DNA of 63,765 nt, counting the filler, from Collodictyon triciliatum (lineage: Eukaryota): the NCBI GenBank assembly GCA_043381765.1. It is 7 parts of 7 records of this genome, joined end to end, with 100 filler letters (N's around TTAATTAATTAA, not from the genome) between each part and the next. Parts side by side here need not be neighbours in the genome. Positions count along the whole stretch, not along the records: positions 45,536 to 54,722 come from JBHJMP010000821.1; 6 more parts are not named here. One strand, 5' to 3'. Positions 14,206 to 63,765 of the stretch are shown one piece after another. Within the stretch, counting starts at the first letter, position 1. Every line of letters begins with the position of its first letter. Under the pieces are notes generated by a model that was not told the origin of the DNA, did not search any database, and worked only from the letters and a program-made list of their open reading frames with translations. The position numbers were made by a program, and so were the translations under genes.

Positions 14206-14236
<31 letters not shown>

Positions 14237-14486: not shown

Positions 14487-14519
<33 letters not shown>

Positions 14520-16297
14520 TCGTGATTTGGCCAAACAGAAAGAGGTTCTGGTGCAAAAAAAAATCATAAAAATCAACAAAGTATTGGCATTTTATTTCCA
14601 TGAGTAAAATTATAGAAAACTACTTAGAATTGTGCTCAATAACTCGAAAGCATGGGCCTCAGGTATGAAATACATCAGGTCGGGAGGATCTGCTCCTTCT
14701 AAATACTCTGGGACATCTGTGTAAGCTCCATCAATCCAGTCATCCTATCCATTTGATATTAATCGTGTTTATGGTTCTGCAAAAAAAAAAAAAATCATTT
14801 ATTCAATTCGAGAATGGTGTAATGAAAATTGAAAAATAAAACAGTAAACGTGCTATGAATTGAGCGAAGGGCAGTGAGGTTTAGCTATTCACATAAGGAA
14901 TTTAAAGTTACACTTGATCTGGGGCCAAATATCATCAAATGGAAACCGCTTCGCCAAATGAAATTTGGATCTGTAATTTTGGAAAGGACAACAATGGATA
15001 TGTAACCAATTCTGTGAAATAATCTAGTTAGTGTGTCTTTCAGACTGCTCCCTATTGTCAGGAAGATTGGGGATGACCAACAATCGATAATCTAGGATGA
15101 ATGTTAGATTGTTAGTGCCGACGAATGCAAACCATCTCGATAGATTACCATAATTTTATGAATGAAAAAAATGAATTGAAAGAAGATGTGATAACGACTA
15201 GGGAAGTTATCTTGTCGAAGACAATACCCTGCTGTAAATAGACATTATTGGTCTGAAGGTGTGGTGGTGTCTTATCATCTCGAGGTTTTCACCGCATCTT
15301 GTAAGAATTTCAATGATCTGGATGATATCTGATGCTATTTCTAATTCTTCCATCGGCCGTTCATCATCATTTGAATCTGTCTCAATATCACCCGAGTTTT
15401 CTTGCAGGATTTTGGCTGACATATGCCCAATATAATGTTGATAAATAAACAGACATTTAATTCAATGCGCATGAGAAAAGATGAAAAGATGAAGATATGC
15501 CATATTTAATGGAAGTAAAAGAGAGGGACTTTTATACTGAGTGAGGAAGCAAATAACTCTATGGAACGCACCATTTTTTCTGAAAAGAAATGCAAATTTC
15601 GTCATTTCATGGCAGATGGTCATGGGATGACCCTGGATTGCATTACTAGTTAAGCTCTCCGGTGGCTGCCAATTTTCAAAAGATCGTAGGAATTCTCTGG
15701 AGAAGATTCGGAATGAAGCAATTTTCTGGAGCAAGATTATTGTGTTTAAAATTTTGTATTGCTATTTTAACAAAATGTAAGGGGAATAAACCTTCAATCA
15801 ATAGAAACCCTTTATCAATACTAAGAGAAAAACACTTGGCAATACTTGTATTTATTATCACAAACTTCATCCCATGGCCGGGACTCTGCAAAGTGGCTGA
15901 ATGATTCGTACAGTCCTCTACGATCCGAACTATTTTGAATTGAAAATGATAATTATCGTCATGGAATGGTAACGTTGGAAGAACCATATTTGGTAATGAA
16001 TAGCATAACTTATTATTTAGCTTTCCTTTGTTTATCAACGCGACTTATTGATATATATATATATTGACCACGCGAGTTAGTTATTTATTAGGCACCAATA
16101 GAAACGAAATAGTGAACAAATAATCGGGAAGGAATTGGCTTAACCCACGGATAAAGGAACATTCGAAGAGTTGCGCAGTGCTCGCAGAATGAAAACTCTC
16201 CGAGATGGACTCCTTTTGGAGGGTCGCTCTCTGCCATTGGCACGCTCGTCAATTGTTGCGAGCCGAACTTGGATATTGCCTTCCGAAAGAGATTCAT
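116..16297 (-). CDS. BEACH-domain protein (neurobeachin/LRBA/NBEAL-like), multi-exon, 3'-partial (WD40 region would lie left of the window)
   Basis: Spliced GT-AG exons give classic BEACH motifs: [65 protein letters not shown] and VELPAWA. Also present are a PH-like [29 protein letters not shown], a ConA-like [14 protein letters not shown] and [13 protein letters not shown]. The start is probably [11 protein letters not shown] at 16297. Confidence 0.93.
2009..2118. repeat. (ACAAT)n microsatellite
   Basis: Tandem pentamer in an intron; source of the spurious CCIVVLLY ORFs. Confidence 0.95.
6211..6312. repeat. (AAAAT)n microsatellite
   Basis: Tandem pentamer in an intron. Confidence 0.95.
8068..8168. 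repeat. (TATG)n microsatellite
   Basis: Tandem tetramer in an intron. Confidence 0.95.
10827..10894. repeat. (TTA)n microsatellite
   Basis: Tandem trimer in an intron. Confidence 0.95.
13259..13530. repeat. Compound polypurine satellite (AGAGGAAAG)n-(AAAAG)n-(GGAAAGGAAAAA)n
   Basis: Three adjacent purine-only repeat units in an intron. Confidence 0.92.
14207..14515. repeat. (TATG)n microsatellite spanning a 100-N gap
   Basis: Tandem tetramer on both sides of the gap. Confidence 0.95.
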
Positions 16298-24897: not shown

Positions 24898-24997
24898 NNN
24901 NNNNNNNNNNNNNNNNNNNNNNNNNNNNNNNNNNNNNNNNNTTAATTAATTAANNNNNNNNNNNNNNNNNNNNNNNNNNNNNNNNNNNNNNNNNNNN
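24898..24997. other. Artificial scaffold-joining spacer
   Basis: N44-TTAATTAATTAA-N44 (all-frame stop linker), identical at six sites. Confidence 0.97.
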
Positions 24998-32466: not shown

Positions 32467-32566
32467 NNNNNNNNNNNNNNNNNNNNNNNNNNNNNNNNNN
32501 NNNNNNNNNNTTAATTAATTAANNNNNNNNNNNNNNNNNNNNNNNNNNNNNNNNNNNNNNNNNNNN
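32467..32566. other. Artificial scaffold-joining spacer
   Basis: N44-TTAATTAATTAA-N44 flanked by microsatellites. Confidence 0.97.
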
Positions 32567-35800: not shown

Positions 35801-36695
35801 CTACACCTTTGCATCGACATCATTCATGCATTTCAGCATGGGCCCAATCAAATCTTGCAGATAATCATTCAAATTGATCTCGAATAGAATAAGCAAGGTA
35901 GAGGCGTGAGCGTCATTATTAAGAAACCATACATGTGCATTAATGTTATTTGTATGTGGCCTTTTTTTTTGGATAAAAATATGTCAATAGTAAATGAAGA
36001 GCAATGTGCACGGGTGAAAGAGAAATTACTTGCCCAAGAGCAACAGAACAGCCGGCCAGAGCCAATAAACCGCCTTTTCGGGCTTGTGCGTTGGTCGACG
36101 CCACAAACTGTGTGTTCAGTACATCGATCAATCTTCGCACCTCCTCTTTGTCCTCTCTGTTGGGCAGTGCTTCGTCAAGTTCATACTCACAAGCATGGAA
36201 AAGAGAGAAAAAGAAAAAGAAAAAGAAAAAGAAAAAGAAAAAGAAAAAGAAAAAGAAAAAGAAAAAGAAAAAGAAAAAGAAAAAGAAAAAGAAAAAGAAA
36301 ANNNNNNNNNNNNNNNNNNNNNNNNNNNNNNNNNNNNNNNNNNNNNNNNNNNNNNNNNNNNNNNNNNNNNNNNNNNNNNNNNNNNNNNNNNNNNNNNNNN
36401 NAAAGAAAAAGAAAAAGAAAAAGAAAAAGAAAAAGAAAAAGAAAAAGAAAAGAAAAAGAAAAAGAAAAAGAAAAAGAAAAAGAAAAAGAAAAAGAAAAAG
36501 AAAAGAAAATAGAAGAGTCTCAAGTGGCAGATCGTACCGCTGAGCGAGTGATCTCATGATGGCCTCGACTTCTGCGGCTGCGCCTTTGCGTTTTTCATAG
36601 ATCTTGTCACTCAGATTGCGCGTTGTGGTGACGGGCAAAACAGACGAGCCTGCAGAAGACCCGGAGTGCCCGACGCTCTGGTATTCTGCTGCCAT
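32810..36695 (-). CDS. VAC14: VAC14 homolog (PIKfyve/Fab1-FIG4 scaffold), multi-exon, internal gap and 3'-truncated
   Basis: RNLSDKIYEKRKGAAAEVE, ARKGGLLALA, DGIFVMLSDPSKELRRQADETLSEFL, TRLTVLNWILMLH, and RGSTVIRHICLSLDKEKVYRTI. Confidence 0.93.
36207..36508. repeat. (GAAAAA)n microsatellite spanning a gap
   Basis: Tandem hexamer in the first VAC14 intron. Confidence 0.93.
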
Positions 36696-36726
36696 TACTC
36701 CTGCGCGCTGGCTCGGAGACTTCAGA

Positions 36727-36762
36727 GTTTGTTTTGTTTTGTTTTGTTTTTGTTTTGTTTTG

Positions 36763-36793
<31 letters not shown>

Positions 36794-36915
36794 TGTTTTT
36801 GTTTTTGCTTTTGTTTTGTTTTGTTTTGTTTCTTGTTTTGTTTGTTTTGTTTGTTTTGTGTGTTTTGTTTGTTTTGTTTGTTTTGTTTGTTTTGTTTGTT
36901 TTGTTTGTTTTGTTT
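36727..36915. repeat. G/T-only satellite (GTTTT/GTTTTT/GTTTGTTTT)n
   Basis: Tandem repeats immediately upstream of VAC14. Confidence 0.9.
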
Positions 36916-37034
36916 ATTCACTTTTTATTTATTTATTTTTTGTTTTTATTTTAAGGTTGAATCGTATGTTTGGATGACAGAAGGGATTGAATAGTGACAA
37001 AAGTGATGACAGCGACGGCGGTGTTGTGATAATG

Positions 37035-39235: not shown

Positions 39236-39335
39236 NNNNNNNNNNNNNNNNNNNNNNNNNNNNNNNNNNNNNNNNNNNNTTAATTAATTAANNNNNNNNN
39301 NNNNNNNNNNNNNNNNNNNNNNNNNNNNNNNNNNN
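39236..39335. other. Artificial scaffold-joining spacer
   Basis: N44-TTAATTAATTAA-N44 between (AAAC)n and (GTTATTATTGTT)n repeats. Confidence 0.97.
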
Positions 39336-43612: not shown

Positions 43613-44201
43613 TTTCTGTCTTTAACTACATAGGAAGAAGACGTGTTTAGGACAGCTAATGTCTAAGTTTGGAGTAGCTGTTAAATAACACAAAATAGAA
43701 GAGACTATAATTCCTCTCAACAACCAGACAGTCAATGGTGTAAGTTATATGAATGGCAAAGTAAAATACAAGGGAGCCTCCATCTTTTAACCTTTGCGCA
43801 ACCACATACATAGTCTTCCAGAAGAAGAAAAAAAAGAGGAAGTTGTCTGCAAACTAAGCTTGATTTAATATTCTCTTTACTCTTCTCTATTCCGACGCGA
43901 TAGTGGGGGGGNNNNNNNNNNNNNNNNNNNNNNNNNNNNNNNNNNNNNNNNNNNNNNNNNNNNNNNNNNNNNNNNNNNNNNNNNNNNNNNNNNNNNNNNN
44001 NNNNNNNNNNNCCTGCCAATTGCTGGCTAAGGACACGATACTTTCCGATATATTGTTCTTGGTTGAAAACCTGGTAGTCGAGCTCTTGAGAGGGTTTTTC
44101 TTCAGGAGCGGTCAGGGTCGCAGATCGAGTAAGAACTCTCTCTCTCTTTCTCTCTTGGATTAGGTAGTGTTAGCTACTTGATCGGTTTTAACAACTTTTG
44201 A

Positions 44202-45164
44202 ACAGGAACAAATAATATAGCAGGACAGTTGAATCTTACAACAGCAGGATCTGCTGGAGCCCCTGCTCTGTTATTTAACGACACAACAACACCCAGCGGC
44301 ATTTGGGGCACGGACAACAATATATTTATTGGTACAGGTGGGGCACAACGAGTGAACATTCGTGACAATGGTGTCTCAATAACAGGTCAAAGTAATAGAA
44401 CACAGGGAATGTTAGATATAACAGATAGTAATAGTTCAGTTCTTTCTCCTAGTATAAAAATAAATGGTAGTGGCCAGGACACAGGCTTTTATTCAGCGTC
44501 CAATAACGCACTTAATGTAGCTGTAAACGGCGTTCAAAATTTTGCTTGGGGTCCCGTGTATAATCAAAATTTCAATGTACTACAATTAAGTGACCATTTA
44601 CGTCTGGACACCGCTAAAGAAATACAATTTGGCACAAATACGTTTGACACAAATGCAATTAAAGGCACTTATGACCCGGTTGTTAACGATAACAATGAAA
44701 TTTTATTTACTATAGGAGGCCTGCAACACGTTCAGTTTAAGAGGAGTCAAGTCAACTTTCTTTTTAATGTATTCTATGGGCAATGTCCCATATATGATTT
44801 TACTTAATATAGCACCGCAGGTGCAGAATTACAAATCGGTACAAATACGCCCCCGGTTACATTTTTCAGCCCAGCCGCGCAAAACAATAGCACTACTACA
44901 GTTACTTTTCCAACGTGTGAAAGTTTACCAGCGGGCTGGCAGGTCCGCATCATATTCCACAATATGAACGATACCTGGATTAATAACGAAGGCCGTTTAA
45001 GGTTTGGCACACAAACAATTAATCTGTTTCGCACGGGAGTATCGTCCTGGACGGCGGGTAGTTATAATCCGCTAGTAAATGGGACGGTTGTTGATGTAAT
45101 TAATTACCGAAGAACAGTTTCAGCAGACAGTCGCTGGTATGTGTGTGGCGTTGTCTCTCCATAA
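44202..45164 (+). pseudogene. Virus/phage-like fibre (tail-fibre/spike) gene remnant, intronless, 5'-truncated, one internal TAA
   Basis: About 320 codons in a single frame, broken only by TAA at 44805-44807. It has repeated GSAGAPALLF...SGIWG..NNIFIGTGGAQRVNI / SSVLSPSIKI...DTGFYSASNNALNVAVNG units and a C-terminal TVTFP....AGWQVRI...WYV head-like domain. It is G/N/T-rich, with no introns or microsatellites. Confidence 0.6.
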
Positions 45165-45212
45165 ACAATTCTTATAAATACTAACAATTGTTTAAAAATT
45201 GCGCGATTTATT

Positions 45213-45434
45213 TTAATAAATAGCCTGTGACAGGTTTTTAATAGGCGTTCCAAAGACTCGCTCTGTGATAGGCCCGTAAGATTTGCGTCCAAATGCACCA
45301 GAGGATATAAAGAACTGTGCATCCCTTGCTGAGCCAAATGCGCGCTTCTGGCCCCCGCCGTAGACGACGTAATTGAGCCCCTCTCGTCGGATGTTGTAAT
45401 TTGATTGGCCCGGAATAATGATGGTACCGAGGTC
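45213..45434 (-). CDS. C-terminal end of an unknown intronless ORF convergent with the fibre-like gene (cut by scaffold end)
   Basis: Open frame from the scaffold edge, DLGTIIIPGQSNYNIRREGLNYVVYGGGQKRAFGSARDAQFFISSG...LSQAIY-TAA, with AATAAA immediately after the stop; 48 nt from the opposing stop. Confidence 0.45.
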   Translation of the reverse strand, partial: DLGTIIIPGQSNYNIRREGLNYVVYGGGQKRAFGSARDAQFFISSGAFGRKSYGPITERVFGTPIKNLSQAIY

Positions 45435-45435
45435 A

Positions 45436-45535
45436 NNNNNNNNNNNNNNNNNNNNNNNNNNNNNNNNNNNNNNNNNNNNTTAATTAATTAANNNNNNNNN
45501 NNNNNNNNNNNNNNNNNNNNNNNNNNNNNNNNNNN
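45436..45535. other. Artificial scaffold-joining spacer
   Basis: N44-TTAATTAATTAA-N44. Confidence 0.97.
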
Positions 45536-45789
45536 TTTTTGTTTTTTGTTTTTTGTTTTTTGTTTTTTGTTTTTTGTTTTTTGTTTTTTGTTTTTTGTTT
45601 TTTTGTTTTTTTGTGGTTTCTTATTGCTTCTGAGACGAATTCTGTCTGGCCGGTAGCGGCCCGTGACCCAGTGATCAACAGGGTGGAGCCGAATGTGCTG
45701 TGTGATAAGGGGAAATGACAGAATAAATCGCGTGCGGGACGGGTTCTTGTTGGGTGTTTTCGTGGCGCTAAAAGAGCTTAGACTCGTTA

Positions 45790-46130
45790 TCAACTCACAA
45801 AGTGTCCTCTAAACGCGTTGCAAACGCGTATCTAGTGTTGTGGGAAAGGGATACGGTGTGCTGATACATGTCTTATTTTGGACTTTGGTAAGAGCGTGCT
45901 TTCACCATATTTGTATTTTATTTGTGGAAAATAAGTTAAGAGGCTTATTTACCCTTGTCATACCTCACTATGTGTTTTTTTGTATATAATGATTGTATAA
46001 TATAATAGCTATACCAATCTAAAGATTAGTAAACCTGGTGCGCTAGTATCGAGGGTCTCTCTACTTTTTTCACAAAGATTGTGCAGTGGTGAAGGCTGCC
46101 TGAAAAAACCCAACAGCATATTTTTTTAGA
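45790..46130 (-). ncRNA. Candidate Fanzor omegaRNA region / element right end (boundaries unknown)
   Basis: Lies at and just 3' of the Fanzor ORF end, where the omegaRNA is encoded in characterized Fanzors. Contains stems TTCAC...GTGAA, AATAAG-N8-CTTATT and ACGCGTT-GCA-AACGCGT. Confidence 0.35.
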
Positions 46131-48006
46131 GGAAGATGAATGCTTTTTTTTTGAAGAATTGAAAGGACTTTGTTGAGTATATTATTAGCGCTGTTAAAGT
46201 CCCTGTCAATAATACACTTTGTTTGCTTTCCGAGCGATTACATTCTTTACATATGAGACATCTATATGCCTTTTTTTTGAATTTCCTTTCGGTCTCATAT
46301 ATTCCAGTTCTTTTTCGCAGTTGCAGCACACCTTGGAGGTTCTAAATTCATCTACACTAACTGTTTCAAAACGTTTGGATACTATTTTTCTTAATCTTCT
46401 TTCGATTGTGGCATAAAATGTTTCATCTGAGATTTTCTGCTCCAGTCTCCATACCCCAGTACAACATCCTTGCCAAATACCTTTTCGATTCCGTCCATAA
46501 ATAATTCTTCACCTCTTTTTGTATTAACATACTGTCCCCATATCATCTTTAGAAAAGTTACTTTTTCATAAAATCTGGATAACTCTATCTGGTATCTTGA
46601 TTTCATAGATACATAATTTCGAATTTTTCATAATCGACCGTGCATGAACTGTGTTTACTCAGTCCTGTCTCTAAATCGATTAAATATGCTCTTGGAGTCT
46701 CAAACCGCTGGTTCTCTTCAAAATTCATGTGACCAAAAGAAACATCAGTTTGTAAACCTGTTGCGATGTATATCCCTGAAGCATTGTACTTTTTTTTCTC
46801 GCGCAAGAGTATTTTGTGATTTTTAAGAGATTTGGTATCATGTCTTCTTTGGTGTGCAGTGTAACGTAATTTCTTAACTGTCTCATCCACCATATAAACC
46901 AAATCAAACTTGCATGCGTCCACTACGACCATTTTTTTCGCTAATAAAGGTAACTGCTCTTCGGAAAGTTCATCTGTATAAACATATTCTTGATTTTTTT
47001 GATTGTATTTGTATTCTGAATTTTGAAATACCTTTCTTTCAAACAATAATGACACCGCCAAGCCGTTTGTTTGTATCATGTATTTAAAATTGTAGTCTGT
47101 TTGATGGAAGACCCTCTTCTTCATTTCAAAGAAATTATCCCGTGGTTTCTCTTTGCATTCTGATATATTCTCCAGTAATAATTTTTTTTTCAGTTGATAC
47201 TAATATATCTATCAAACATACAGTATGTAGGGTAATATGACATGGTATATTGTTTGTTCTTAAAGGGATTGGTTGAAACAGTTTGGTTTCAACGTCCTCA
47301 AAAAAGCGGTTCATGTAAATCAGACATGGAATGCACCTATTATGATTGACTTTGACATCACATTCGATACCATTTACAATATCGCTGGGAATGATATGAT
47401 TCAAATGGATTCTAGCCCATTATTTATATTGTTCCGGTATTTCGAGATTCTTGAAGATGGCTTCTTTTTAAGTTTCGTAACTCTGACTTTCTTAATAGCT
47501 TCCGTAATATTCTCATCTTTAGGAACTGTTTGATTTATAAAGTGCAGTAACCTCTTTACAAAATGTTCTTTAATGTTGTTATGATAAGCTGTTAACATTT
47601 GCTTCGCCAAGTACGGTAATACATGAGACAGTCCAACCAACGGAAAGCGTTCTCGGGACAAAAGGAATCGAAAATGATTGAGATAAAAAGCCATCATGTC
47701 TTTGCTAATTTCTGGTTTTTTTTATTAATCACGTGGGTCTATCTTGTGAAACTGTTCCGACTGTCTTAAAAGTGTACAAAAAAAAAACATTTCATGGATT
47801 GTTGGGAGTTGTTGTGATTTCAATATGTAACACCTTGCAAACAGATAAGTGTCGGTAACCAAATAATGGCGCAATAAAACCGTATCGTTGATTTTGTAAT
47901 AGCCATCCGCATTCTTTACAATCGACTTTAGAGATGTTTTCATATTTCGATAGTCTGGTTTTACAGACTTTAGATTCTTAAACTCAAGACGTTTCCTTTT
48001 CTTCAT
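46070..48006 (-). mobile_element. Fanzor (Fanzor1-like, TnpB-family RuvC endonuclease), frameshifted/degenerate copy
   Basis: Collinear fragments: N-terminal KTSLKSIVK..INDTV..LVTDTYLF..YIL; MLTAYHNNIKEHFVKRLLHFIN; KLFQPIPLRTNNIPCHITL; FKYMIQTNGLAVSLLF; RuvC-I VVVDACKFDLVYMVD; VVLGYGDWSRKSQMKHFMP; RuvC-II VSVDEFRTSKVCCNC; zinc finger LICKEC; RuvC-III IDRDFNSANNIL. Confidence 0.88.
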
Positions 48007-48052
48007 GTGAAAGTCTTTGTTCTACTTTTTCCTTTAGAAAACTACCGAGTTT

Positions 48053-48060
48053 TCAATTTT
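48053..48060 (-). promoter_or_regulatory. AAAATTGA motif (Mimiviridae early-promoter-like) about 50 nt upstream of the Fanzor ATG
   Basis: The plus strand reads TCAATTTT at 48053-48060. The same 8-mer also occurs by chance elsewhere in this AT-rich DNA. Confidence 0.25.
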
Positions 48061-48789
48061 AACAATACTTAAGTCAGTCAAGTCAATCTATTAAAAAAAA
48101 ATGCACAAAATCAGGTCAGGTAAAATTAAGCATCTACCAAGACTCTCAAAATGTGCGCATTGTGGCAAACAAACAGAGTTTTTTTTTTAACAAGTGATTT
48201 GAGACAAAGCGCTGAGAGCCGATTCGGCGAGTTCGAAAAGACGGCCGTATAGCCATTGTGACTGAAAGTCAACATATCGGCCCCAAGCAACATGATTATA
48301 GTTGAAAGTGTGGATAGTATGCTTTTTTGGAATACAAGTTTGGTGGCAGGTTTATAGGGTGGGTTCTGTCTGGGCCAAGACAACGGCTTTTGTAATCTTT
48401 GGATTTTAATGATAATATTACATAAATGAAAAATAAAATATAAATTGATAATAGGAATAAAATGATATATTAAGTATTTTTAATCGTATTATGTTCTTAT
48501 CATGCTATTATATTATTCAGGTTGCTTCTTGGATTCATCAAAGCTCCTGCTTTCGTCAATCCAGAATTAATTCTGATGGTTGTCTGTGCAATAAACTGCT
48601 GTGTATATGTGTACACTTTCGTTGTATAAATAGTATTGTGCCTTGAAAGGGATAAAACCAAGTTCGTCACAACCTTTGTAATAAAGTTTATCCATTTACA
48701 GGCTGAATGAGACCGAAGATGAAGAAAAAAGAATATAAAAATGAATCAGAACAACCAATACTGGGCACTATATTCATATTGACATTGTT

Positions 48790-49710
48790 ACCCGTGGGTC
48801 GGTGGCTTGAGCTCGATCGGTCTTTTTTATTCCTCTTTATTATTATTATGATTATTATGATTATTATGATTATTATGATTATTATGATTATTATGANNNN
48901 NNNNNNNNNNNNNNNNNNNNNNNNNNNNNNNNNNNNNNNNNNNNNNNNNNNNNNNNNNNNNNNNNNNNNNNNNNNNNNNNNNNNNNNNNNNNNNNNNNNN
49001 NNNNNNNNNNNNNNNNNNNNNNNNNNNNNNNNNNNNNNNNNNNNNNNNNNNNNNNNNNNNNNNNNNNNNNNNNNNNNNNNNNNNNNNNNNNNNNNNNNNN
49101 NNNNNNNNNNNNNNNNNNNNNNNNNNNNNNNNNNNNNNNNNNNNNNNNNNNNNNNNNNNNNNNNNNNNNNNNNNNNNNNNNNNNNNNNNNNNNNNNNNNN
49201 NNNNNNNNNNNNNNNNNNNNNNNNNNNNNNNNNNNNNNNNNNNNNNNCTAACATCCATGACAGAAGAATTCATGACATAAACACATCTATAAAATCGAAG
49301 CTGACAAGACATTTATAAGGTAGAAAGATTGGGAGAATAGTCGGTATTGATTTATGTATTGCTAGTGACTCTCGCTAAAATTTATCGAATAGTAAACAGT
49401 TGTTAAGGAAAGTTGATAAAGTGACCCAGGGCAAAGGGAGCATACCATTTAGGATCTCCTGGCCATCTTTTCGTAAGCGATGTTGTCTTGATTTCATATC
49501 TGCCGAGCAGTGTGTCAAATCCAATAGAATCCTCGTCGTAACACTAGATATTTGAAATATTTGCGTCGTTTGAGGCAATATTAAAATGGTGTTCGTCTAC
49601 TTGAATAGCTAGAAACATTAGGGGACATACAAGTACGGACACATTCGGCGCAAGGGTCAAAGGCTCCGGCAAGTCCATTTCGATATTCAAAACTTCATAC
49701 CTACAGTTAA

Positions 49711-49746
<36 letters not shown>

Positions 49747-49953
49747 TTTAAAAAAATATTAAAAAAAAAAAATTTTTTGTTAAATTTAATTTATTTAAAT
49801 TTGAAANNNNNNNNNNNNNNNNNNNNNNNNNNNNNNNNNNNNNNNNNNNNNNNNNNNNNNNNNNNNNNNNNNNNNNNNNNNNNNNNNNNNNNNNNNNNNN
49901 NNNNNNAAAAACTACAAAAAAAAAAATAAAAAAATAAAAAAATAAAACAAAAA

Positions 49954-49989
<36 letters not shown>

Positions 49990-52633
49990 GGAAAATAATT
50001 TTTTTTATTTATATTGAATGGGTATATATTAATGGTAATAGTAATACAAACCAGGCCGGATAAAGTGTCATTTTCTTAACAGATGTCTTTTTATAGAACG
50101 GACCACATCTGATTATGCAGTAAGGATCTGAGAAACCATTTAAATTGGCTGTGGGTAAAGCCCGCCCCTGAGATGGAGAAAAATATTGGTCATTACAAAT
50201 AAGCGAAGCAATTTGAATTGTACTTATGAAATTTTGTATCGAATGAAGGGTAAAAGAAAAATACATTTATATATATATATATATAAAGAAACCGTTCATA
50301 TGAGTAACTATGGATAGGATTTTAGGCTGAGTTTTGTTAGGTAGCGGTGTTAATGATCAAAAAAGTACTTGATAAATGTTTGCTCGCAGGTTATATTTAC
50401 GAAGATTCGGTTTAGGCAACAATGCTCTTTCCTTTGGAAAACTGGAGGTATAGGCAACATCTAGTCTGAAAGGAGTATTACAGTTACCAGATGTTCATCT
50501 GCTTCTTGCATAGTGGTTTCGTTGAATATGTGTTTTTTTTTCTATTATTGTTCTAAAGTATGCTTTATGAACGAAAGGTTAGTTCCTTCTTTTATTGGTT
50601 TTATTGCTATTGTTATTACATTTATTATTTCTTTCAGTTTGTGCAATATGGTTGAAAGGTTTATTGCTCAGCAAAAATAAAATAATAATACGATAAAATA
50701 AAATAAAAAGAACATACTGAAACAATATGAATCCAGCTGGTCTATCCTTTTCATATAATGCAGATGTCTGGTCTGCTATTAGACTCTCCCAACGTGGACT
50801 GACGGTGAAAGAAGAAAAAATGGATGAAATGATTTCCCTTTACTTTTTTCTTTTTGTTATTTATTATGGTTTATTTTTAGGATAACATTCATAATTTAAC
50901 TTAAAAATTGAAAAATCATTTTGGCGTTCGAGTCACCTGTGATTGGTTCCGTAGACATCAGAAGCCTGACATTTTTAAATAATTAATTCAATATTAGAAG
51001 GTAGATTCGCAGTTTAAGTGTAATATTTTGTTTGTGCGATGATTATGCCTATAATCCGATTATAGGTCACCTTATATTTTAAGAATCCGATTCGGGAACG
51101 ACCAAAAACTTTACTATCAGAGTATCTGAATACAAAAATTTAGAAATTTTCTAAAAATTTTAAATACAATAAAAAAAATTTTAAAAATAGGAAATACTTA
51201 CACATTTATAATTATGTCTGGGAACATGGATATGTCCTCTGGGTAATTTAAGTTGATGTAATTGAACGCTTGATACCAAGTAACCACTCCATTCTATTAT
51301 CAAAAGCGGAATAAATCAGTTAAGGTTAAAAAGGTATGAGAATCATGGTCACCCATACCTTTCCTTTTAACTTGTGAGACTCATAATCTTTATCCCCAAT
51401 ACTTATCTCAACGACATAATCTGTATTTTTTTTAATTAGTACAGTTATGGAGAATAAATAAAGTAAAGCTAAAATTTTGAATCAACAATTTGCACACTCC
51501 AGAGGGCCAAGATTTGTACAGCACAATCTAGGATACAAACATAAACAAAAAACAAAAAAACAAAAAAACAAAAAACAAAAAACAAAAAACAAAAAACAAA
51601 AACGAAAACGAAAACATAAACGAAAGAAGGGAAACCTGATATTAGAGCTGGTGCTAGCTCAGCCGCTTCATATAGATCGAATCGCACGGTGTATGGTATG
51701 ATGGGAGGTTCATTGCAAGCTGATGTTTTCCTTTGTTGTGGCTATATTTCGTTCCATTTGTACAAAAAAAAAAAAACCTAATTGTGATGGATGAATAATT
51801 CGGATTTGTTATTTCTTTTGGAATGAGAACCTGAGGGTCATCTTGTTTGACAACATCGGCAGACAAGAGAATTCGACCCATATAATCGGTAAGCTGTTCG
51901 ACTGACCAAGTACCTGTGTGTTTATTTACATTATTAGGACATTTGTCTACATAATAGCTTCGGGAATTTACATTTTTGTATAGTGTCTTGACTAATTACC
52001 TTGCATAGTTGAGTTTAACTTATCCCTGATTTAACCAATCATTATAAATATATGCTCTTGTTAATGAACGACAACAATGTAGATAATAATAATTGAAGAA
52101 ACAAAATTGGCATTACATATAACTTCAAGATAAGGCCTGAATGAATTTTTTTGACTTTCTATATTTATTTTGTACAATACCTAACAGATGTTCCACGGGT
52201 TCCGTACATATTTATCCAGGTGGGTGGGATTGGCTTCTTCATAATCTCACTAAAGCGGAAGTGCATGGTAGAAATCTTGTCATTTGATCCAGTCTAGGAG
52301 GAAGAGTGCCAGGTATTAAGTTATGAAGGGAGTCTTAAAAGGATATTTTTAGAACTAAAATATGATAATTTTGCTAGAATAATATGGTGTAATAAAGAGA
52401 AAAAGAGCCGCCTTCGTCTCTTCGATATTTAAATGGAAAATTTATTTTGACAATATAAAAAGTATTCATATTGAAGCAAAAAGTTACCAAATCCCAGTCA
52501 TAAACAATAACTTCTATCAGGTCACTCATCGTGGGTATGTAAACTGGAATGCAAAGCTCTTCATTCCAAACGGGATTGTATGTCCTTTTTATTACCTAAA
52601 AGTGAAAATGGAAACAACAATTATTTTTCCTAA

Positions 52634-52676
<43 letters not shown>

Positions 52677-54570
52677 AAAAATAAATAAAAAAAGTACTGA
52701 TAATTTAATGTATTTTTTAAAATATACATCTACTACTTTACATATATATTATCTATAAATAAACGCTAACCTGAGTTGCTATGGGTTTGTTTCCAGCAAA
52801 TTTGATTTCGACATAGCCATCACACTTTCCTACTATTTTTTGATTTTTTAATTTTTTTTGTTTTGATGCTTGCATTTTTAACACATAAAAAAGGAAGGGA
52901 CATTTTTTTTATTGTGTTCTGTTTTTTTCCCTTTTATTTGTTTCGCCTTCTGATTGATATTTTTGTTTCTTCTGTTTTGCTTGCTTGTTTGTTTGTTTAT
53001 TTAAAAAAACAGAAAGAATGATGTCTATAGTTAAAAACAGGAGATTGAGACAACACAAAACATACAAAAATCTGTTTTTGGAAGCCCTTCTGCTTTAAAA
53101 ATTCTGAAGCACAGAAGATATCCTGTTAGTTGCATCTCAGGAGGGAGGAGAACCTAACACAAAGAAAAGATATTCCTGAATGGACTACTTTAATCAACAA
53201 CCACATATCCACCATACAGGATAATCATATTACAGCTTCTCGCAATAGTATGCAACGAATATATAAATAAGTAAATAGACATGCAGGTAGAGAGGAACAT
53301 GATATTTAATTCACAGAGGAGTAATATTTGAATGTTTTCTTGTTACCATGGATTGTAGGTCAGTTCCAGTTTCATCATCCTCGTCTTCCTTTTCGTCGTG
53401 CGTGGGAAATGTTTCTCCGGGCCCGGTGATTGAAATACTGACTTTCAAATATCCCTGGAGTTATTGAATACGTTTATTTGAACAGAAAGGGAGGTAGATA
53501 GAGGAGAAACCCCCTAATTGCACACATATAAAAGAGTGATAAGAGGAATTATCGACTATTTTCAACCGAGCTGCAAATAAAAGATATTCCACGTTTACTA
53601 GAGCGAGCAGCTCGCAAGTTTGTAAGCTTTTTTTCTCTTTTATTCTTCCTTTCAATTTGCAAGCTTTTCTTTAAATAATAATGAAAAAATGTGATGCGAT
53701 TGGTATACGTTGAAATTACCTGGATTCCTTTCTCTCGCTCGGTTGCTGTCAATGCAAGCCAAGTGCGATATATCTCCCGCTGAGGTTTGTTGTATATGAA
53801 CGCTACTTCAAACTCGTACCGGCCTGTTAAGATAGATGTTGTAAATGTAAACATATGTGGTTACGATAGAAAAAGGGAGAGATGATGTTGGTACAATAAC
53901 TAAAGTACAGAAAAGAATGATCATTTATTCTCACACAAGATTCCAAGCTAGATGAACTATAACATCAGCGACTTACCGATTATAACATTACGAAAAAATG
54001 TGTTTGCATCAAACACGTTCACTTGAATCTTTGCTGACTCCAAGGCCGTTTGTGTCCACCTTGATAAGAAGCGAATAATCATTGTGTTTATTAAATGTTT
54101 TCTAACATTGTAAAAAAAAAAAATTAACAACAAAAAAAGAAAAGAAGGCAACTTGAATGACGCCCTGCATCGCGAACCCATATTCAGATGTAAACAACTC
54201 CAATTATCTATCACTAGAGCGAAACACAAAGGCGAATGATATACAAACAACAATGCTATCATCTTTTCACGGGCAAACTCACTTGAAATTGAAAAAGAAG
54301 AGATGGTCAAATGTACAGCTGAGTGTATTTTTGTGGATCTCGGTATTCTGCTTGACCGAATCGATGGTTACGGAGGCCATTGGATCAGACATTCCGCCAG
54401 AGTCACTTTGTGAAGGCATACGGCACAAAATGCAGGGAAGAGTCAGCAAATAAAGACATTATCGCTGGCATGTTTATTGGGGCCAACGCCGAAAAATAAA
54501 CAGACCGTCCCTTAAGATCTCGTGCTTCGATCACATGTACGCGAATCTGGTATTCCTGTTCTTTGCTCAT
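48790..54570 (-). CDS. Ferlin-family multi-C2 protein (four C2 domains seen; 3' end uncertain, no TM anchor found)
   Basis: MSKEQEYQIRVHVIEARDLKGR|DSGGMSDP; VFDANTFFRNVIIG|RYEF; GYLKVSISITGPG; FKAEGLPKTD; TYNPVWNEELCIPVYIPTMSDLIEVIVYDWD; PTWINMYG; YMGRILLS; LRANIYQ|GRALP...GFSDPY; LAPNVSVL|CYDED. Confidence 0.83.
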
Positions 54571-54722
54571 CCTTGCAATAAAATAGAACGGTGTTTTTTT
54601 TTGTTTTTTTGTTTTTTGTTTTTTGTTTTTTTGTTTTTTTGTTTTTTTGTTTTTTTGTTTTTTTGTTTTTTTGTTTTTTTGTTTTTTTGTTTTTTTGTTT
54701 TTTTGTTTTTTTGTTTTTTTGT

Positions 54723-54822
54723 NNNNNNNNNNNNNNNNNNNNNNNNNNNNNNNNNNNNNNNNNNNNTTAATTAATTAANNNNNNNNNNNNNNNNNNNNNN
54801 NNNNNNNNNNNNNNNNNNNNNN
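54723..54822. other. Artificial scaffold-joining spacer
   Basis: N44-TTAATTAATTAA-N44. Confidence 0.97.
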
Positions 54823-62165: not shown

Positions 62166-62265
62166 NNNNNNNNNNNNNNNNNNNNNNNNNNNNNNNNNNN
62201 NNNNNNNNNTTAATTAATTAANNNNNNNNNNNNNNNNNNNNNNNNNNNNNNNNNNNNNNNNNNNN
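62166..62265. other. Artificial scaffold-joining spacer
   Basis: N44-TTAATTAATTAA-N44. Confidence 0.97.
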
Positions 62266-62664
62266 CATGTGTGAAACGAAGATGTAAGCACAATGTGGCC
62301 AAACAACCAAGCAAACAGGCTGCCTCAATCCGTCCGGTCTTCCGAAACAGTGTCCTCAGGCGGGCTGTGGCGCAAAGCCCAATCAAGCGTTTGAAACACG
62401 AGCCAGAAAGACCTGCTGGATCCTAAAAAAAAAAAAAAAAAAAAAAAAACCAAGAAACGTCAAAAAAGAAATAAAGGAGAATCAAAATAAACAATCGACT
62501 CCGAAAGCGACACCAGGCAAGAACTCGACAAAGGAACAAGACATCTGCAGCGTCTAACCATCGCCAACGCCATCTTGCTTGCCTAGCGCCTCTTTATTTG
62601 TCACTGCTCCGCAGCCTCCTTCCCGCCTGGGATTACAACGCCTCTCGAAACAACTCCACTCGCT

Positions 62665-63663
62665 ATGGACCCCACCTTCCGATCACACACAAACGCCGCG
62701 TCCCCAGCACACTTGAATCCCGGCCCAAAGCGAGCAAGCGAATCTCTCCAACTGGGTGGCGTTGGTTTGTCTCAGCTGCCCAGTGTCGATCACCCAGAGC
62801 CAAGTGCAAAGCGGATACACGACATACCAGTCTTTCATATCGGCCAGCTGGACGCCTTCCAGCAACGATCGCAGCTCGGTGTGTTTCCGCACCCAGATTT
62901 GCAGCTGCAGAGCCAGACACAGATCCAGACGCAGGTGCAGGCTCGACACGGCCCAGACGGAACCAGCCAAAGAGAATCCAGTAGGATACTTCCGGCAACT
63001 ACACTCAGCGAGCACCGTCGACGAAACCGAGGGCGGTCTGTTTTCTGCGCATGGTCTCGCCTCTTCTTATTCTGCTTGCTCTTTTTTTTTTTTTTTTTTA
63101 AAAAAAAATCCATAGATTTTCCATCCAGCTATACTAATACTATATCAACCCAACACATTCGATTCGATCAGACCGTCCGATTTGTGTCATATCTTTTCAA
63201 ATGTCATTTTTTCTCTGCATTGCTGTTGTAATGATTAGAAACATAGATGGCGCTCACTCACACACTGGCCTCTCATTCTTTATGCCACTTTATTCTATTG
63301 TAGCCGACTGTATCACCATTTTCATTCATCACAAAGGTTTGGTTCATGACTATCATGAATATTAGTAGTGACTATGCTCCACAACATCGTCATTGATGGT
63401 TGACTGACTTAAAACGCACGATTTGCAGAGATCAAATGCATAGAGAGACACAACATGAACAGCAGCATTTAATGACCGGTTAAGACGCATGAATGAACAC
63501 AATACCCGCAAGTAGAGTCACTGGCCAGAATGGTGACATAGAAGCGTCAAGTTCACACCTTAATCACTCTACCAACCTGAGCTTAGTGAGGCTCCCACAA
63601 CACAAAATCTTTATCAAGTGATTGTTTTACGGATTTCACACTGGAATGGTCCCTTTCGAAGAC
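62665..63663 (+). CDS. 5' exons of an unidentified gene with a Q/P/S-rich N-terminus
   Basis: GC-richer ORF MDPTFRSH...LQLQSQTQIQTQVQ...RRRNRG followed by small AG/GT-bounded segments; no recognisable domain. Confidence 0.35.
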
Positions 63664-63765
63664 GTAAGTATACTGTCTGCCTCTATTTTATGACGCACCG
63701 CATCATCAATCCTTTCGTGTTGAAAAATAAAACTACTGCTCGAATGCATATTCATCACAAATTTA

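What the first reader, a model, noticed from the sequence alone, without database searches (positions are those of the whole stretch)
46070..48006. Endogenous Fanzor RNA-guided nuclease, decayed but with a complete RuvC and zinc-finger motif set
Seen: about 1.9 kb of collinear minus-strand fragments, broken by several frameshifts, retain RuvC-I D (VVVDACK), the glutamate in VDEFRTS just before CxxC, a second CxxC (CKEC) and RuvC-III D (RDFN). There is also an apparent insertion of about 35 aa (ASGIYIATG...PRAYL). Established: this layout, with the RuvC-II E moved next to the zinc finger, characterises Fanzors, which are omegaRNA-guided DNA endonucleases of eukaryotic transposons and giant viruses. 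Inference: this genome carries a Fanzor family, and intact copies could be new programmable nucleases. No transposase is visible beside it, so it may be non-autonomous or virus-derived.
Basis: partly seen in the sequence, partly recalled or inferred. Interest (0 to 1): 0.85.

Follow-up and report, generated by a model that had tools for sequence, protein, structure and literature searches.

The report
Decayed Fanzor1 nuclease gene copy
This stretch is a broken, non-functional copy of a Fanzor1 RNA-guided nuclease gene from a multi-copy mobile-element family whose closest intact relatives sit in giant-virus genomes; it is a real but ordinary member of a known kind.

Summary
On the minus strand, 48006 to 46070, nine collinear in-frame blocks cover almost the full length (positions 1-593 of 610) of a Fanzor1 profile. 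That profile matches the solved Fanzor1 structures of Spizellomyces, Parasitella and Guillardia at E 3e-103 to 7e-77. The RuvC-I Asp, the relocated RuvC-II Glu, both CxxC pairs and the RuvC-III Asp are all still encoded.

The copy is dead. It has at least 8 frameshifts and one in-path TGA, and 12 of 47 family-conserved residues are replaced.

An intact 648-aa relative (P0153) is 59% identical, carries the same roughly 33-36-aa insert and folds like SpuFz1 (TM 0.73-0.79). One small public run gives 385 diverged contigs on this stretch, so the family is multi-copy.

More distant intact relatives (35-48% identical) lie in giant-virus contigs. There they form TA-flanked TIR elements, either Fanzor-only or with a Tc1/mariner-type DDE transposase.

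No transposase, TIR or omegaRNA could be shown in the window. The window is seven scaffolds joined by linkers, so apparent neighbours across linkers are not real.

Verdict: new member of a known kind, low to moderate interest.

The parts
46070..48006 (-). Decayed Fanzor1 coding region, from ATG 48004-48006 to stop 46070-46072. It is read through nine in-frame blocks.
   Evidence: Eight stop-to-stop pieces hit the family profile at E 1.5e-42 to 0.011, collinear over profile positions 1-593 of 610. The copy is 373/627 identical to the intact relative P0153.
47785..48006 (-). Block A: basic N-terminus (MKKRKR...) and the first helices. It ends in the T10 run.
   Evidence: (profile 1-76, E 9.1e-13).
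47716..47787 (-). Block B: a short detour in another frame between a T10 run (plus strand A10, 47778-47787) and an A8 run (plus strand T8, 47716-47723). It holds the in-path TGA at 47729-47731. The TAA TAA at 47722-47727 is in the other frame and off the path.
   Evidence: tblastn with P0153; three-frame view; homopolymer list.
47431..47715 (-). Block C: helical N-terminal lobe. It ends at a frameshift near 47420-47432 that is not in a homopolymer.
   Evidence: (profile 91-178, E 2.5e-18).
47186..47419 (-). Block D (WARIHL...VSTEKK). It ends at a frameshift in an A9 run (plus strand T9, 47182-47190).
   Evidence: (profile 194-275, E 4.3e-21).
46615..47187 (-). Block E: RuvC-I segment with the catalytic Asp codon 46918-46920 (VVVDACK) and the RYTAHQRR motif. 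It ends at a frameshift near 46617-46623.
   Evidence: (profile 273-433, E 1.5e-42).
46690..46788 (-). Lineage-specific insert of 33 residues relative to the family profile.
   Evidence: insert states. The insert is shared with P0003-P0005, P0008 and P0022 and with intact P0153. It is the low-confidence region in the P0153 model: the three 10-residue blocks spanning 411-440 have mean pLDDT 57, 46 and 51, and residues 422-436 are below 50.
46415..46621 (-). Block F: helices up to GYGDWS. Gly codon 46448-46450 sits at the canonical RuvC-II position, where the usual Glu is absent. The block ends at a frameshift near 46408-46412.
   Evidence: profile 433-507, E 1.8e-20; G521 column kept. Passages of PMC10530073.
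46270..46412 (-). Block G: relocated RuvC-II Glu (codon 46347-46349, VDEFRTS) and the first CxxC (46326-46328, 46317-46319). It ends at a frameshift in an A8 run (plus strand T8, 46271-46278).
   Evidence: (profile 500-555, E 7.1e-14).
46205..46273 (-). Block H: second CxxC (CKEC; 46249-46251, 46240-46242). It ends at a frameshift near 46202-46207.
   Evidence: (profile 545-571).
46070..46210 (-). Block I: RuvC-III (RDFNSANNI; Asp codon 46199-46201) and the C-terminal tail to the stop.
   Evidence: (profile 565-593).
46003..46069 (-). 3' non-coding tail up to the repeat boundary. The family's right end lies between about 46003 and 46024. A motif resembling the viral right end is at 46010-46015.
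   Evidence: contig depth of run X4 is 0 for 45700-46002 and 20-33 for 46003-46204, and contigs reach at least 38 nt past 46062. In the viral relatives the right end lies 44-94 nt after the stop. The homology of this tail was not supported statistically.
48007..48896 (-). Upstream non-coding DNA that is also repeated in run X4. It has a variable AT-rich segment at about 48389-48505. The left end of the element was not found, because the contig stops at the gap 48897-49247.
   Evidence: depth 47-467 up to 48700; joints with replaced letters at 48378-48526. No Pfam hit for the 117-aa ORF 48129-48479. No transposase relic.
45436..45535 (.). Artificial linker (44 N, a 12-base six-frame-stop spacer, 44 N). 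It marks the start of the Fanzor-bearing scaffold 45536-54722.
   Evidence: There are six such linkers in the window, and the next is at 54723-54822.

Best explanation
The region is a dead copy (pseudogene) of a Fanzor1 gene. It belongs to a multi-copy, decaying family of small DNA-transposon-like elements in a eukaryotic nuclear genome.

How the intact state most likely works, by analogy with characterised Fanzor1 elements and with the giant-virus relatives examined here. This is inference, not shown for this lineage:
- The element is about 2.4 kb, with short terminal inverted repeats flanked by TA.
- It carries one intronless ORF of about 620-650 aa, with about 0.4 kb of upstream non-coding DNA.
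- Its 3' end, overlapping the end of the ORF and running to the right terminus, is transcribed into a structured omegaRNA whose guide is read from the flank.
- The Fanzor1-omegaRNA complex cuts DNA matching the guide next to a TAM. It uses a RuvC site made of the RuvC-I Asp, a Glu relocated next to the zinc finger, and the RuvC-III Asp.
- Movement itself is catalysed in trans by a Tc1/mariner-type DDE transposase encoded by longer relatives.

What is shown for this copy:
- It has the full Fanzor1 domain order and all catalytic and zinc-binding residues.
- Its reading frame is broken at least nine times, and a quarter of the family's conserved residues are replaced. It cannot make the protein.
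- No omegaRNA, TIR or transposase can be demonstrated beside it.

Most related contigs share three of its breaks. Part of the family therefore seems to have multiplied after the gene was already broken.
For: Family identity:
- phmmer with the 198-aa piece 46603-47199 found 215 proteins at E <= 0.001 (36 at <= 1e-10) among 1.84 billion.
- A profile of 33 full-length hits matches SpuFz1, PpFz1 and GtFz1 at 3.4e-103, 8.2e-101 and 6.8e-77. The next PDB hits, LaTranC and UnCas12m4a, score >= 1.5e-4.
- Eight window pieces match that profile collinearly.
- Single pieces on their own rank Fanzor1 chains first in the PDB: PpFz1 at E 0.011 and SpuFz1 at E 0.11.

Intact lineage member P0153 (648 aa):
- It is 373/627 identical to the window copy read with X at each break.
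- The model has pLDDT 88.4 and pTM 0.87.
- Foldseek ranks SpuFz, PpFz and GtFz at ranks 1-7 (E 1.9e-27 to 9e-23, TM 0.65-0.79). Cas12, TnpB and Fanzor2 chains reach only TM <= 0.33.

Decay:
- At least 8 frameshifts and one in-path TGA.
- The window keeps 35 of 47 strongly conserved family columns, against 46 of 47 for P0153.

Multi-copy family:
- Run X4 gives 385 contigs on 45700-48700: 43 at >= 99% likeness, 82 at 95-99%, 144 at 90-95% and 116 below 90%. Depth drops sharply to zero below 46003.
- The close protein relatives in public sets, other than P0153, are fragments of 68-291 aa. One of them, P0006, contains an out-of-frame stretch like the window's.

Host setting: the same scaffold carries minus-strand C2-domain exon pieces above the Pfam cut-off (26.9 and 23.0 bits against 22).

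Element architecture in relatives:
- 574 of 596 candidate stretches in IMG/VR encode relatives.
- 81 of 83 fetched loci have open frames of 602-640 aa. The other two are shorter (421 and 575 aa) and begin within about 500 bases of the start of their locus, so I take them to be cut.
- 2 of 2 searchable host records carry the NCLDV major capsid gene.
- 34 of 40 dereplicated loci have both TIRs. 23 of these elements are 2347-2426 bp and 11 are 2607-4846 bp.
- 6 of 6 tested 315-350-aa cargo ORFs are DDE_3 plus HTH transposases.
- The relatives have a conserved 3' RNA structure of 25 pairs, 13 of them with compensatory changes.

Literature: passages of PMC10530073, PMC10432273, PMC3627910 and bioRxiv 10.1101/2024.09.03.611062.
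Against: - Four of the 8 frameshifts sit in homopolymer runs of 8-10 bases. They could be assembly errors, and no read set of the source sample was found to check them.
- The covariance model of the viral 3' RNA does not find the window's 3' end. The whole-window best hit is 14.7 bits, E 0.27, at an unrelated place. Locally the score is 4.2 bits, E 0.32 in 802 nt.
- The 3' tail folds no better than shuffles (z +0.93).
- The viral TIR profile finds nothing at either presumed end.
- The best internal inverted repeats (16 nt at 45994-46009 / 48504-48519; 21 of 30 at 46010-46040 / 48381-48410) are not above shuffled controls.
- The repeat continues upstream past any candidate left end. The element's extent, and therefore its Tc1/mariner-like nature, are inferred from relatives that are only 35-48% identical.
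- The link between the Fanzor contig and the C2 gene crosses two scaffold gaps.
- Run X4 may be a different organism from the window's. Its kind (RNA or DNA) is only a guess by the tool.
Confidence: 0.88

Rival explanations
1. The gene is intact in the organism. The breaks are sequencing or assembly errors in a low-quality draft.
For: - Four of 8 frameshifts lie in A/T runs of 8-10 bases.
- The assembly is gap-rich, with 21 N runs.
- The long host ORFs contain no run of 8 or more, so accuracy at such runs cannot be judged from them.
Against: - Four frameshifts and the in-path TGA are not in homopolymers.
- 12 of 47 conserved residues are replaced, against 1 of 47 in the intact relative.
- At three break sites, most contigs of independent public runs agree with the window's state (table 4).
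- Related fragmentary or frameshifted products occur in other public data.
Confidence: 0.04
2. The copy is part of an integrated giant-virus genome (an endogenous viral element), or of viral contamination. It is not a cellular transposon copy.
For: - Apart from P0153, the nearest intact relatives are in giant-virus contigs.
- In the tree the window clade lies in a polytomy with clades that contain viral sequences.
- Fanzor1 elements are shared between endogenous giant viruses and host chromosomes in Chlamydomonas (passages of bioRxiv 10.1101/2024.09.03.611062).
- The Fanzor contig is bounded by gaps.
Against: - No viral gene lies on the 9.2-kb scaffold, which carries an intron-split C2-domain gene.
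- The GC of the element (33.8%) is like that of the scaffold (32.8%) and the window (35.1%).
- Hundreds of diverged contigs (85-99% alike) with shared breaks look like an old dispersed repeat family.
- Identity to the viral proteins is only 35-48%.
Confidence: 0.07
3. The scaffold comes from a contaminating organism, not from the genome being assembled.
For: - The window is a concatenation of unplaced scaffolds.
- No sequencing run of the source was found.
Against: - Composition, microsatellite content and gene style (intron-split eukaryotic genes) match the other six scaffolds.
- Pieces identical over 261-263 nt occur in two freshwater metagenome runs, including one that bridges the repeat boundary into the unique flank. 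This shows only that the locus exists in nature.
Confidence: 0.02

Closest known systems
SPu-1 / SpuFz1 of Spizellomyces punctatus (Fanzor1; PDB 8GKH, 9CEU-9CEZ)
   Same: - Same protein family and fold. The family profile scores E 3.4e-103, and the P0153 model aligns with TM 0.73-0.79 over the full length.
- A single intronless ORF of about 630 aa.
- D / relocated E / D catalytic set and a C4 zinc finger.
- According to passages of PMC3627910, the SPu-1 element is about 2.1 kb with 33-bp TIRs and putative TA duplications. It has 17 full-length copies, 9 of them with intact ORFs. That is a family mixing intact and decayed copies, as here.
   Different: - Only about 20% sequence identity in the structural alignment.
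- This lineage has a 33-36-aa insert after the RuvC-I segment.
- This copy is dead.
- TIRs, TA duplications and an omegaRNA could not be shown here.
Fanzor1 elements of giant viruses (IMG/VR giant-virus MAG contigs, loci L001-L080; compare PGv-1 / Mariner-type elements of Bao and Jurka 2013)
   Same: - After P0153, these are the nearest intact relatives of the window copy, at 35-48% identity per piece. They fall in the same half of the tree.
- Same ORF length and the same distance from the stop to the right end: 44-94 nt in the viral loci against 46-67 nt to the depth boundary here.
- A Fanzor-only form of 2.35-2.43 kb exists.
   Different: - They are intact and sit in viral genomes carrying the NCLDV capsid gene.
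- They have clear 28-30/30 TIRs, a covarying 3' RNA and, in the longer forms, a DDE_3 transposase, a methylase or endonuclease-like cargo.
- None of these features is detectable in the window.
- They lack the insert.
Fanzor1 families of the Chlamydomonas reinhardtii endogenous giant virus, and the host-chromosome fragment
   Same: Passages of bioRxiv 10.1101/2024.09.03.611062 describe Fanzor1 with a Tc1-Mariner transposase, Fanzor-only forms with a right-end guide, degraded non-autonomous copies, and a Fanzor fragment in a host chromosome. This is the same picture of virus-host sharing and decay.
   Different: In the window no viral context is present.
TnpB of IS200/IS605 (e.g. ISDra2) and Cas12f
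   Same: RuvC fold with an inserted zinc finger. RNA-guided DNA cleavage is the mechanism expected.
   Different: - Much smaller proteins with the canonical RuvC-II glutamate.
- Fold match only TM 0.19-0.33.
- Pfam's TNB model PF07282 hits the window piece below its cut-off (17.1 against 26.3 bits).
Fanzor2 (e.g. mimivirus ApmFz2, PDB 9B0L)
   Same: Eukaryotic or viral TnpB descendant with the relocated glutamate.
   Different: - Weak match only: phmmer E 0.48 and Foldseek TM 0.23-0.30.
- Fanzor2 is linked to IS607-type elements (passages of PMC10530073 and PMC3627910).

Membership tests
Fanzor1 | Full-length sequence homology to Fanzor1 proteins, closer than to TnpB, Cas12 or Fanzor2 | tested here: met
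   - The profile of relatives scores E 3.4e-103, 8.2e-101 and 6.8e-77 against SpuFz1, PpFz1 and GtFz1. All other PDB hits score >= 1.5e-4.
- The window pieces hit that profile at 1.5e-42 to 0.011, covering positions 1-593 of 610.
Fanzor1 | Fanzor1 fold (bilobed, with REC/WED and a RuvC domain holding a zinc-finger insertion) | tested here: met
   Tested on the intact lineage member P0153, not on the broken copy. The model has pLDDT 88.4. Foldseek ranks 1-7 are all Fanzor1 chains, with TM 0.65-0.79.
Fanzor1 | Motif D-X(125,275)-[TS][TS]-X-X-C4 zinc finger-X(5,50)-RD (Bao and Jurka 2013; passage seen) | tested here: met
   D (46918-46920), then TS in RTSK, then CCNC ... CKEC, then RD (46199-46204), all present in order. 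All seven conserved columns are kept (D364, T558, S559, C562, C565, C587, C590), as are R603 and D604. They are spread over four reading frames.
Fanzor1 | Canonical RuvC-II Glu replaced (by Gly or Pro) and an alternative conserved Glu downstream, next to the zinc finger | tested here: met
   GYGDWS has Gly at the conserved G521 column, and the Glu of VDEFRTS sits at the invariant E555 column. The rule itself comes from passages of PMC10530073. It also holds for some TnpBs, so it is not sufficient on its own.
Fanzor1 | Open reading frame able to give the protein | tested here: not met
   At least 8 frameshifts and one in-path TGA. 12 of 47 conserved residues are replaced. The copy is a pseudogene of the family, not a working member.
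Fanzor1 | Cognate omegaRNA encoded at the 3' end, running to the right end of the element | tested here: inconclusive
   - The model built from 35 giant-virus relatives (25 pairs, 13 compensatory) gives only 4.2 bits (E 0.32 in 802 nt) at 46061-46094, and nothing in the whole-window search.
- The fold z-score is +0.93.
- Rfam gives no match.
- The model comes from relatives only 35-48% identical, so absence is not shown.
Fanzor1 | RNA-guided, TAM-dependent DNA cleavage | not testable with these tools
   This needs biochemistry on an intact lineage member.
Tc1/mariner-type (TA-flanked TIR) Fanzor-carrying element | Terminal inverted repeats flanked by TA | tested here: inconclusive
   - They are clear in the viral relatives: 34 of 40 loci, with 28-30 of 30 positions identical between the ends.
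- In the window the viral TIR profile finds nothing.
- The internal candidates do not exceed shuffles: score 52 against mean 41.9, sd 5.6, max 64.
- The right boundary is placed only by contig depth, at 46003-46024.
Tc1/mariner-type (TA-flanked TIR) Fanzor-carrying element | DDE transposase in the element or elsewhere in the genome | tested here: not met
   - No match in the window to six viral DDE_3 transposases or to their profile (best E 0.34 and 1.4).
- The rest of the genome could not be searched.
- This fits a non-autonomous copy but does not show one.

The most novel reading that the evidence does not exclude
This is the relic of a distinct Fanzor1 lineage, marked by a 33-36-aa flexible insert after the RuvC-I segment. 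On this reading the lineage is, or recently was, highly active in a freshwater eukaryote and still has intact members such as P0153. Much of its expansion happened after the nuclease gene was already broken. Dead Fanzor carriers would then be copied in trans, and the nuclease would not be needed in cis for spread. Intact members would be new compact programmable nucleases from a lineage that sits among giant-virus Fanzors.
Probability: 0.3. Interest if true: 0.45.

Novelty: new member of a known kind. Interest (0 to 1): 0.28.

Why it matters
The copy itself cannot work, so its direct value is small. It does flag a Fanzor1 lineage with an intact 648-aa member and a lineage-specific insert, related to a large set of giant-virus Fanzor1 elements. 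That lineage could be mined for compact RNA-guided nucleases.

It also adds a case to the picture of selfish elements shared between giant viruses and eukaryotic hosts. Many related contigs share this copy's frame breaks, which hints that such elements can multiply after the nuclease gene has died. This bears on the open question of what Fanzor does for its transposon.

For annotation, the practical lesson is that this window is a chain of unrelated scaffolds. Gene neighbourhood across the linkers means nothing.

Tried and rejected
- **Pfam on the seven raw pieces.** Only a sub-threshold PF07282 hit (E 0.0061, 17.1 bits against a cut-off of 26.3) for 46206-46508. The other weak hits are noise.
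- **Word-based homologue search with the 100-aa zinc-finger piece, longer proteins.** Nothing.
- **PDB phmmer with piece 47135-47419.** Nothing.
- **Whole-genome search.** No genome is held for this window.
- **Earlier-findings tool.** Closed.
- **Rfam at gathering thresholds over the whole window.** No match.
- **Other copies inside the window.** None; the best non-self E is 0.33.
- **Sequencing runs.** No run holds more than 9% of the sampled words of 45700-48700, and no RNA holder is listed. Neither the frame breaks nor expression could be checked against source reads.
- **Metagenome scans for DNA-level copies.** The single-protein query gave 123 pattern matches, none confirmed. A four-row alignment gave 3 loci, all distant at 34% identity. 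The element ends could therefore not be defined from aligned copies.
- **TIR candidates.** The 16-nt inverted pair 45994-46009 / 48504-48519 and the 30-nt pair 46010-46040 / 48381-48410 are not above shuffles. The repeat continues past both left candidates. The viral TIR profile finds nothing at the ends.
- **omegaRNA.** The covariance model from the viral relatives gives no significant match. The 3' tail shows no unusual stability.
- **Intron reading of the insert.** Rejected. The insert is in frame in the window and is present in the intact 648-aa P0153 and in five fragmentary relatives. Those products were found as open frames, which biases the sample.
- **Alternative genetic code (TAA read as a residue) for the TAA TAA.** Rejected. 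The homology path leaves that frame around it, and the other breaks are frameshifts and a TGA.
- **The fibre-like ORF 44202-45164 as a viral neighbour.** Rejected as a neighbour, because it lies on another scaffold. It has no Pfam hit and no relative in IMG/VR.
- **Careful IQ-TREE run.** It did not finish in time, so a FastTree tree was used instead. Its backbone is unresolved, so no direction of transfer between virus and host can be given.
Full report
**1. What is in the sequence**

The minus strand from 48006 to 46070 was read in all three frames. It starts with ATG at 48004-48006 and a basic N-terminus, and ends with a stop at 46070-46072.

- VVVDACK, Asp codon 46918-46920.
- VDEFRTS, Glu codon 46347-46349, directly followed by CCNC.
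- CKEC, at 46240-46251.
- RDFN, Asp codon 46199-46201.

An extra stretch of 33 residues lies at about 46690-46788.

**2. Is it more than chance?**

Pfam alone barely sees the pieces. The only relevant hit is PF07282, E 0.0061, below its cut-off.

The largest piece (46603-47199, 198 aa) was scored by phmmer against 1.84 billion proteins. It found 215 at E <= 0.001 and 36 at E <= 1e-10. Many are full-length proteins of 580-760 aa that match it at their residues around 280-420.

I aligned 33 of these full-length proteins (A1). Their profile hits three solved Fanzor1 proteins:
- Spizellomyces punctatus, E 3.4e-103.
- Parasitella parasitica, E 8.2e-101.
- Guillardia theta, E 6.8e-77.

Nothing else scores better than 1.5e-4.

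The same profile was run against all 2500 six-frame stop-to-stop pieces of the window. It finds eight pieces at E 1.5e-42 to 0.011. All are on the minus strand inside 46073-48021, in order, covering profile positions 1-593 of 610. The ninth-best piece has E 0.034 and lies elsewhere (alignments).

Two pieces on their own already rank Fanzor1 chains first in the PDB: PpFz1 at E 0.011 and SpuFz1 at E 0.11.

**3. State of the gene**

A word-based search for longer relatives of the 198-aa piece returned one protein, P0153. It is 648 aa, from a 2610-nt contig, and open from end to end.

tblastn of P0153 on the window shows the true reading path. There are nine in-frame blocks separated by at least eight frameshifts:

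| Frameshift site | In a homopolymer run? |
|---|---|
| 47778-47787 | yes, T10 |
| 47716-47723 | yes, A8 |
| about 47420-47432 | no |
| 47182-47190 | yes, A9 |
| about 46617-46623 | no |
| about 46408-46412 | no |
| 46271-46278 | yes, A8 |
| about 46202-46207 | no |

There is also one TGA inside the path, at 47729-47731. The eye-catching TAA TAA at 47722-47727 is off the path.

So four of the eight frameshifts lie in homopolymer runs of 8-10 bases and could be assembly errors. The other four and the TGA do not.

The copy read with X at each break is 373/627 (59%) identical to P0153. At 47 columns where at least 85% of 65 relatives share one residue, the window keeps 35 and P0153 keeps 46. The window's losses include Y215C, D260H, W288R, D313N, P365A and R487L. 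The three catalytic residues and four Cys are kept.

This is the pattern of a pseudogene. The motifs survive because the copy is young enough, not because it still works.

**4. The family is Fanzor1**

P0153 was folded with an alignment of 65 relatives. The model has pLDDT 88.4 and pTM 0.87.

Foldseek against the PDB puts seven Fanzor1 chains first (SpuFz, PpFz, GtFz), at E 1.9e-27 to 9e-23 and TM 0.65-0.79 over the full length. Cas12, TnpB and Fanzor2 chains follow at TM <= 0.33.

The insert is the low-confidence part of the model. The three 10-residue blocks spanning 411-440 have mean pLDDT 57, 46 and 51, and residues 422-436 are below 50. It is probably a flexible loop. It is present in P0153 and in five fragmentary relatives, and absent from the 33 more distant ones. 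It is therefore a lineage-specific coding insert, not an intron.

There the canonical RuvC-II Glu is replaced by Pro or Gly, and a conserved alternative Glu lies about 45 residues away and is essential for cleavage. Bao and Jurka also note a conserved G500 and E536 in Fanzor1 (passages of PMC3627910). In the window the canonical site reads GYGDWS and the alternative Glu is in VDEFRTS. The same paper reports this rearrangement in a TnpB2 clade, so it is not diagnostic of Fanzor on its own.

**5. Context**

The window is not one piece of chromosome. Six linkers of 44 N, a 12-base six-frame-stop spacer and 44 N join seven scaffolds.

The Fanzor copy belongs to scaffold 45536-54722. Its own contig, 45536-48896, is bounded by a linker and a 351-N gap. 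Beyond two gaps, the same scaffold carries minus-strand pieces of an intron-split C2-domain gene. Their Pfam C2 scores are 26.9 and 23.0 bits against a cut-off of 22.

The GC of the element (33.8%) is like that of its scaffold (32.8%). The other scaffolds carry LRR, neurobeachin-type and RING genes. So the setting is an ordinary eukaryotic nuclear genome.

The ORF at 44202-45164, which looks like a neighbour, is on a different scaffold.

**6. Copy number and spread**

No whole genome is held, and the window has one copy. No public run holds more than 9% of the sampled words of 45700-48700.

I laid four runs at 85% likeness or more. One small run (X4, 51 million letters, kind only guessed) gave 385 contigs on the stretch:
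- 43 at >= 99% likeness.
- 82 at 95-99%.
- 144 at 90-95%.
- 116 below 90%.

Summed contig depth is 0 for 45700-46002, 20-33 for 46003-46204, and 47-467 from 46205 to the end of the laid stretch at 48700.

From this I read the following:
- The element is a diverged multi-copy repeat.
- Its ORF-side end lies at about 46003-46024, which is 46-67 nt past the stop.
- The other end lies beyond 48700 and is lost in the gap.

At three of the window's break sites, only a minority of the depth differs from the window in length: about 38%, 33% and 29% (table 4). Most related contigs, including diverged ones, therefore share those breaks. This suggests that part of the family multiplied after the gene was broken.

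Two freshwater metagenome runs hold pieces identical to the window over 261-263 nt. One of them bridges the repeat boundary into the unique flank.

Apart from P0153, the public protein sets hold only fragments of this lineage, 68-291 aa and 50-70% identical. One of them, P0006, includes an out-of-frame stretch like one in the window.

**7. Relatives in giant viruses, and what they say about the element**

A scan of IMG/VR with the family alignment found 596 candidate stretches, of which 574 encode relatives. The best 80 were fetched.

- With three metagenome loci added, 81 of 83 loci have open frames of 602-640 aa. The other two are shorter (421 and 575 aa) and begin within about 500 bases of the start of their locus, so I take them to be cut.
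- Of five host records asked for, two were searchable. Both (173 kb and 289 kb) carry NCLDV major capsid genes at E about 1e-55.
- The window pieces are 35-48% identical to these viral proteins.
- In a FastTree tree of 75 rows, the window copy groups with P0001 and P0005 (support 99). This clade lies in an unresolved polytomy with clades that contain the viral sequences. No direction of transfer can be read from it.

The viral elements are well defined:
- 34 of 40 dereplicated loci have both terminal inverted repeats, with 28-30 of the first 30 positions identical. Each begins with TA followed by CACC.
- 23 elements are 2347-2426 bp and carry only the Fanzor gene. The left end lies 407-462 nt before the ATG and the right end 51-89 nt after the stop.
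- 11 elements are 2607-4846 bp.
- In the longer ones, 6 of 6 tested ORFs of 315-350 aa are DDE_3 plus helix-turn-helix transposases of the Tc1/mariner/IS630 kind. Other cargo includes a DNA methylase and a CoiA_N/DUF5710 protein.
- Their last 160 nt form a conserved RNA structure of 25 pairs, 13 with compensatory changes. It ends exactly at the right terminus. This is the expected place and shape of an omegaRNA.

This architecture matches published descriptions: SPu-1 and the Mariner-type Fanzor1 elements of algal viruses (passages of PMC3627910), and the endogenous giant virus of Chlamydomonas (passages of bioRxiv 10.1101/2024.09.03.611062).

**8. What could not be shown in the window**

- The covariance model of the viral 3' RNA (R1) gives no significant match. 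The whole-window best hit is 14.7 bits, E 0.27, at an unrelated site. In 45900-46300 the best is 4.2 bits, E 0.32, at 46061-46094.
- The 3' tail folds no better than shuffles (z +0.93).
- The viral TIR profile finds nothing at the presumed ends.
- Internal inverted repeats do not exceed shuffled controls.
- Six viral transposases and their profile find no relic in the window (best E 0.34 and 1.4).

The Tc1/mariner-like, non-autonomous reading therefore rests on three things: relatives at 35-48% identity, the matching ORF-to-end distance, and the absence of a transposase.

**9. Verdict**

This is a decayed Fanzor1 gene copy in a eukaryotic scaffold (confidence about 0.88). Its lineage has at least one intact member and is related to abundant giant-virus Fanzor1 elements. 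It is a new member of a known kind.

The most interesting open points are two. One is whether intact copies exist in this genome. The other is whether the family really expanded after the nuclease gene died.

Noticed in passing
window 24898-24997, 32467-32566, 39236-39335, 45436-45535, 54723-54822, 62166-62265: Six identical linkers (44 N, a 12-base spacer with stops in all six frames, 44 N) show that the window is seven scaffolds joined artificially. Gene order across them is meaningless.
   Followed up: yes
window 44202-45164 (+), contig 44012-45435: A 320-codon frame with one in-frame TAA encodes a Gly/Asn/Thr-rich, fibre-like protein. Its small contig has GC 42%, against 35% for the window. 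It has no Pfam family and no relative in IMG/VR. Its origin is unexplained.
   Followed up: partly
loci L007-L077 (alignment A6), last 160 nt before the right end of each viral Fanzor1 element: The giant-virus Fanzor1 elements share a structured 3' RNA of four helices, 25 pairs, 13 with compensatory changes. The last helix pairs the region just after the stop codon with the terminal inverted repeat. It is a likely omegaRNA scaffold for this viral clade. Whether it is already described was not checked.
   Followed up: partly
loci L033, L034, L044, L027, L043, L019, L054, L001, L003: The longer viral elements (2.6-4.8 kb) carry a divergent DDE_3/HTH transposase. Some also carry a DNA N6/N4 methylase (L034) or a 444-448-aa CoiA_N/DUF5710 protein (L033, L044), between the same TIRs as the Fanzor gene.
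   Followed up: partly
window 48389-48505: In related contigs this AT-rich segment upstream of the ORF is replaced by other letters of different length, while both sides stay similar (tables 5 and 5c). It is a hypervariable spot inside the repeat.
   Followed up: no
window 62266-63765: The last scaffold piece has GC 45.9%, well above the 32-39% of the other six.
   Followed up: no
window 45540-45620, 48837-48890, 13156-14619, 36100-36990 and others: Microsatellites and short tandem repeats are very dense, and many sit next to assembly gaps. Examples are the hexamer run at 45540-45620 and the 9-mer array at 48837-48890. The window has 105 A/T runs of 8 or more.
   Followed up: no
window 49907-54722 (-): An intron-split gene with at least two C2-domain pieces (52377-52595 and 50012-50266) lies on the same scaffold as the Fanzor copy. 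The Fanzor copy lies downstream of it on the same strand. Whether it sits within the gene was not resolved.
   Followed up: partly
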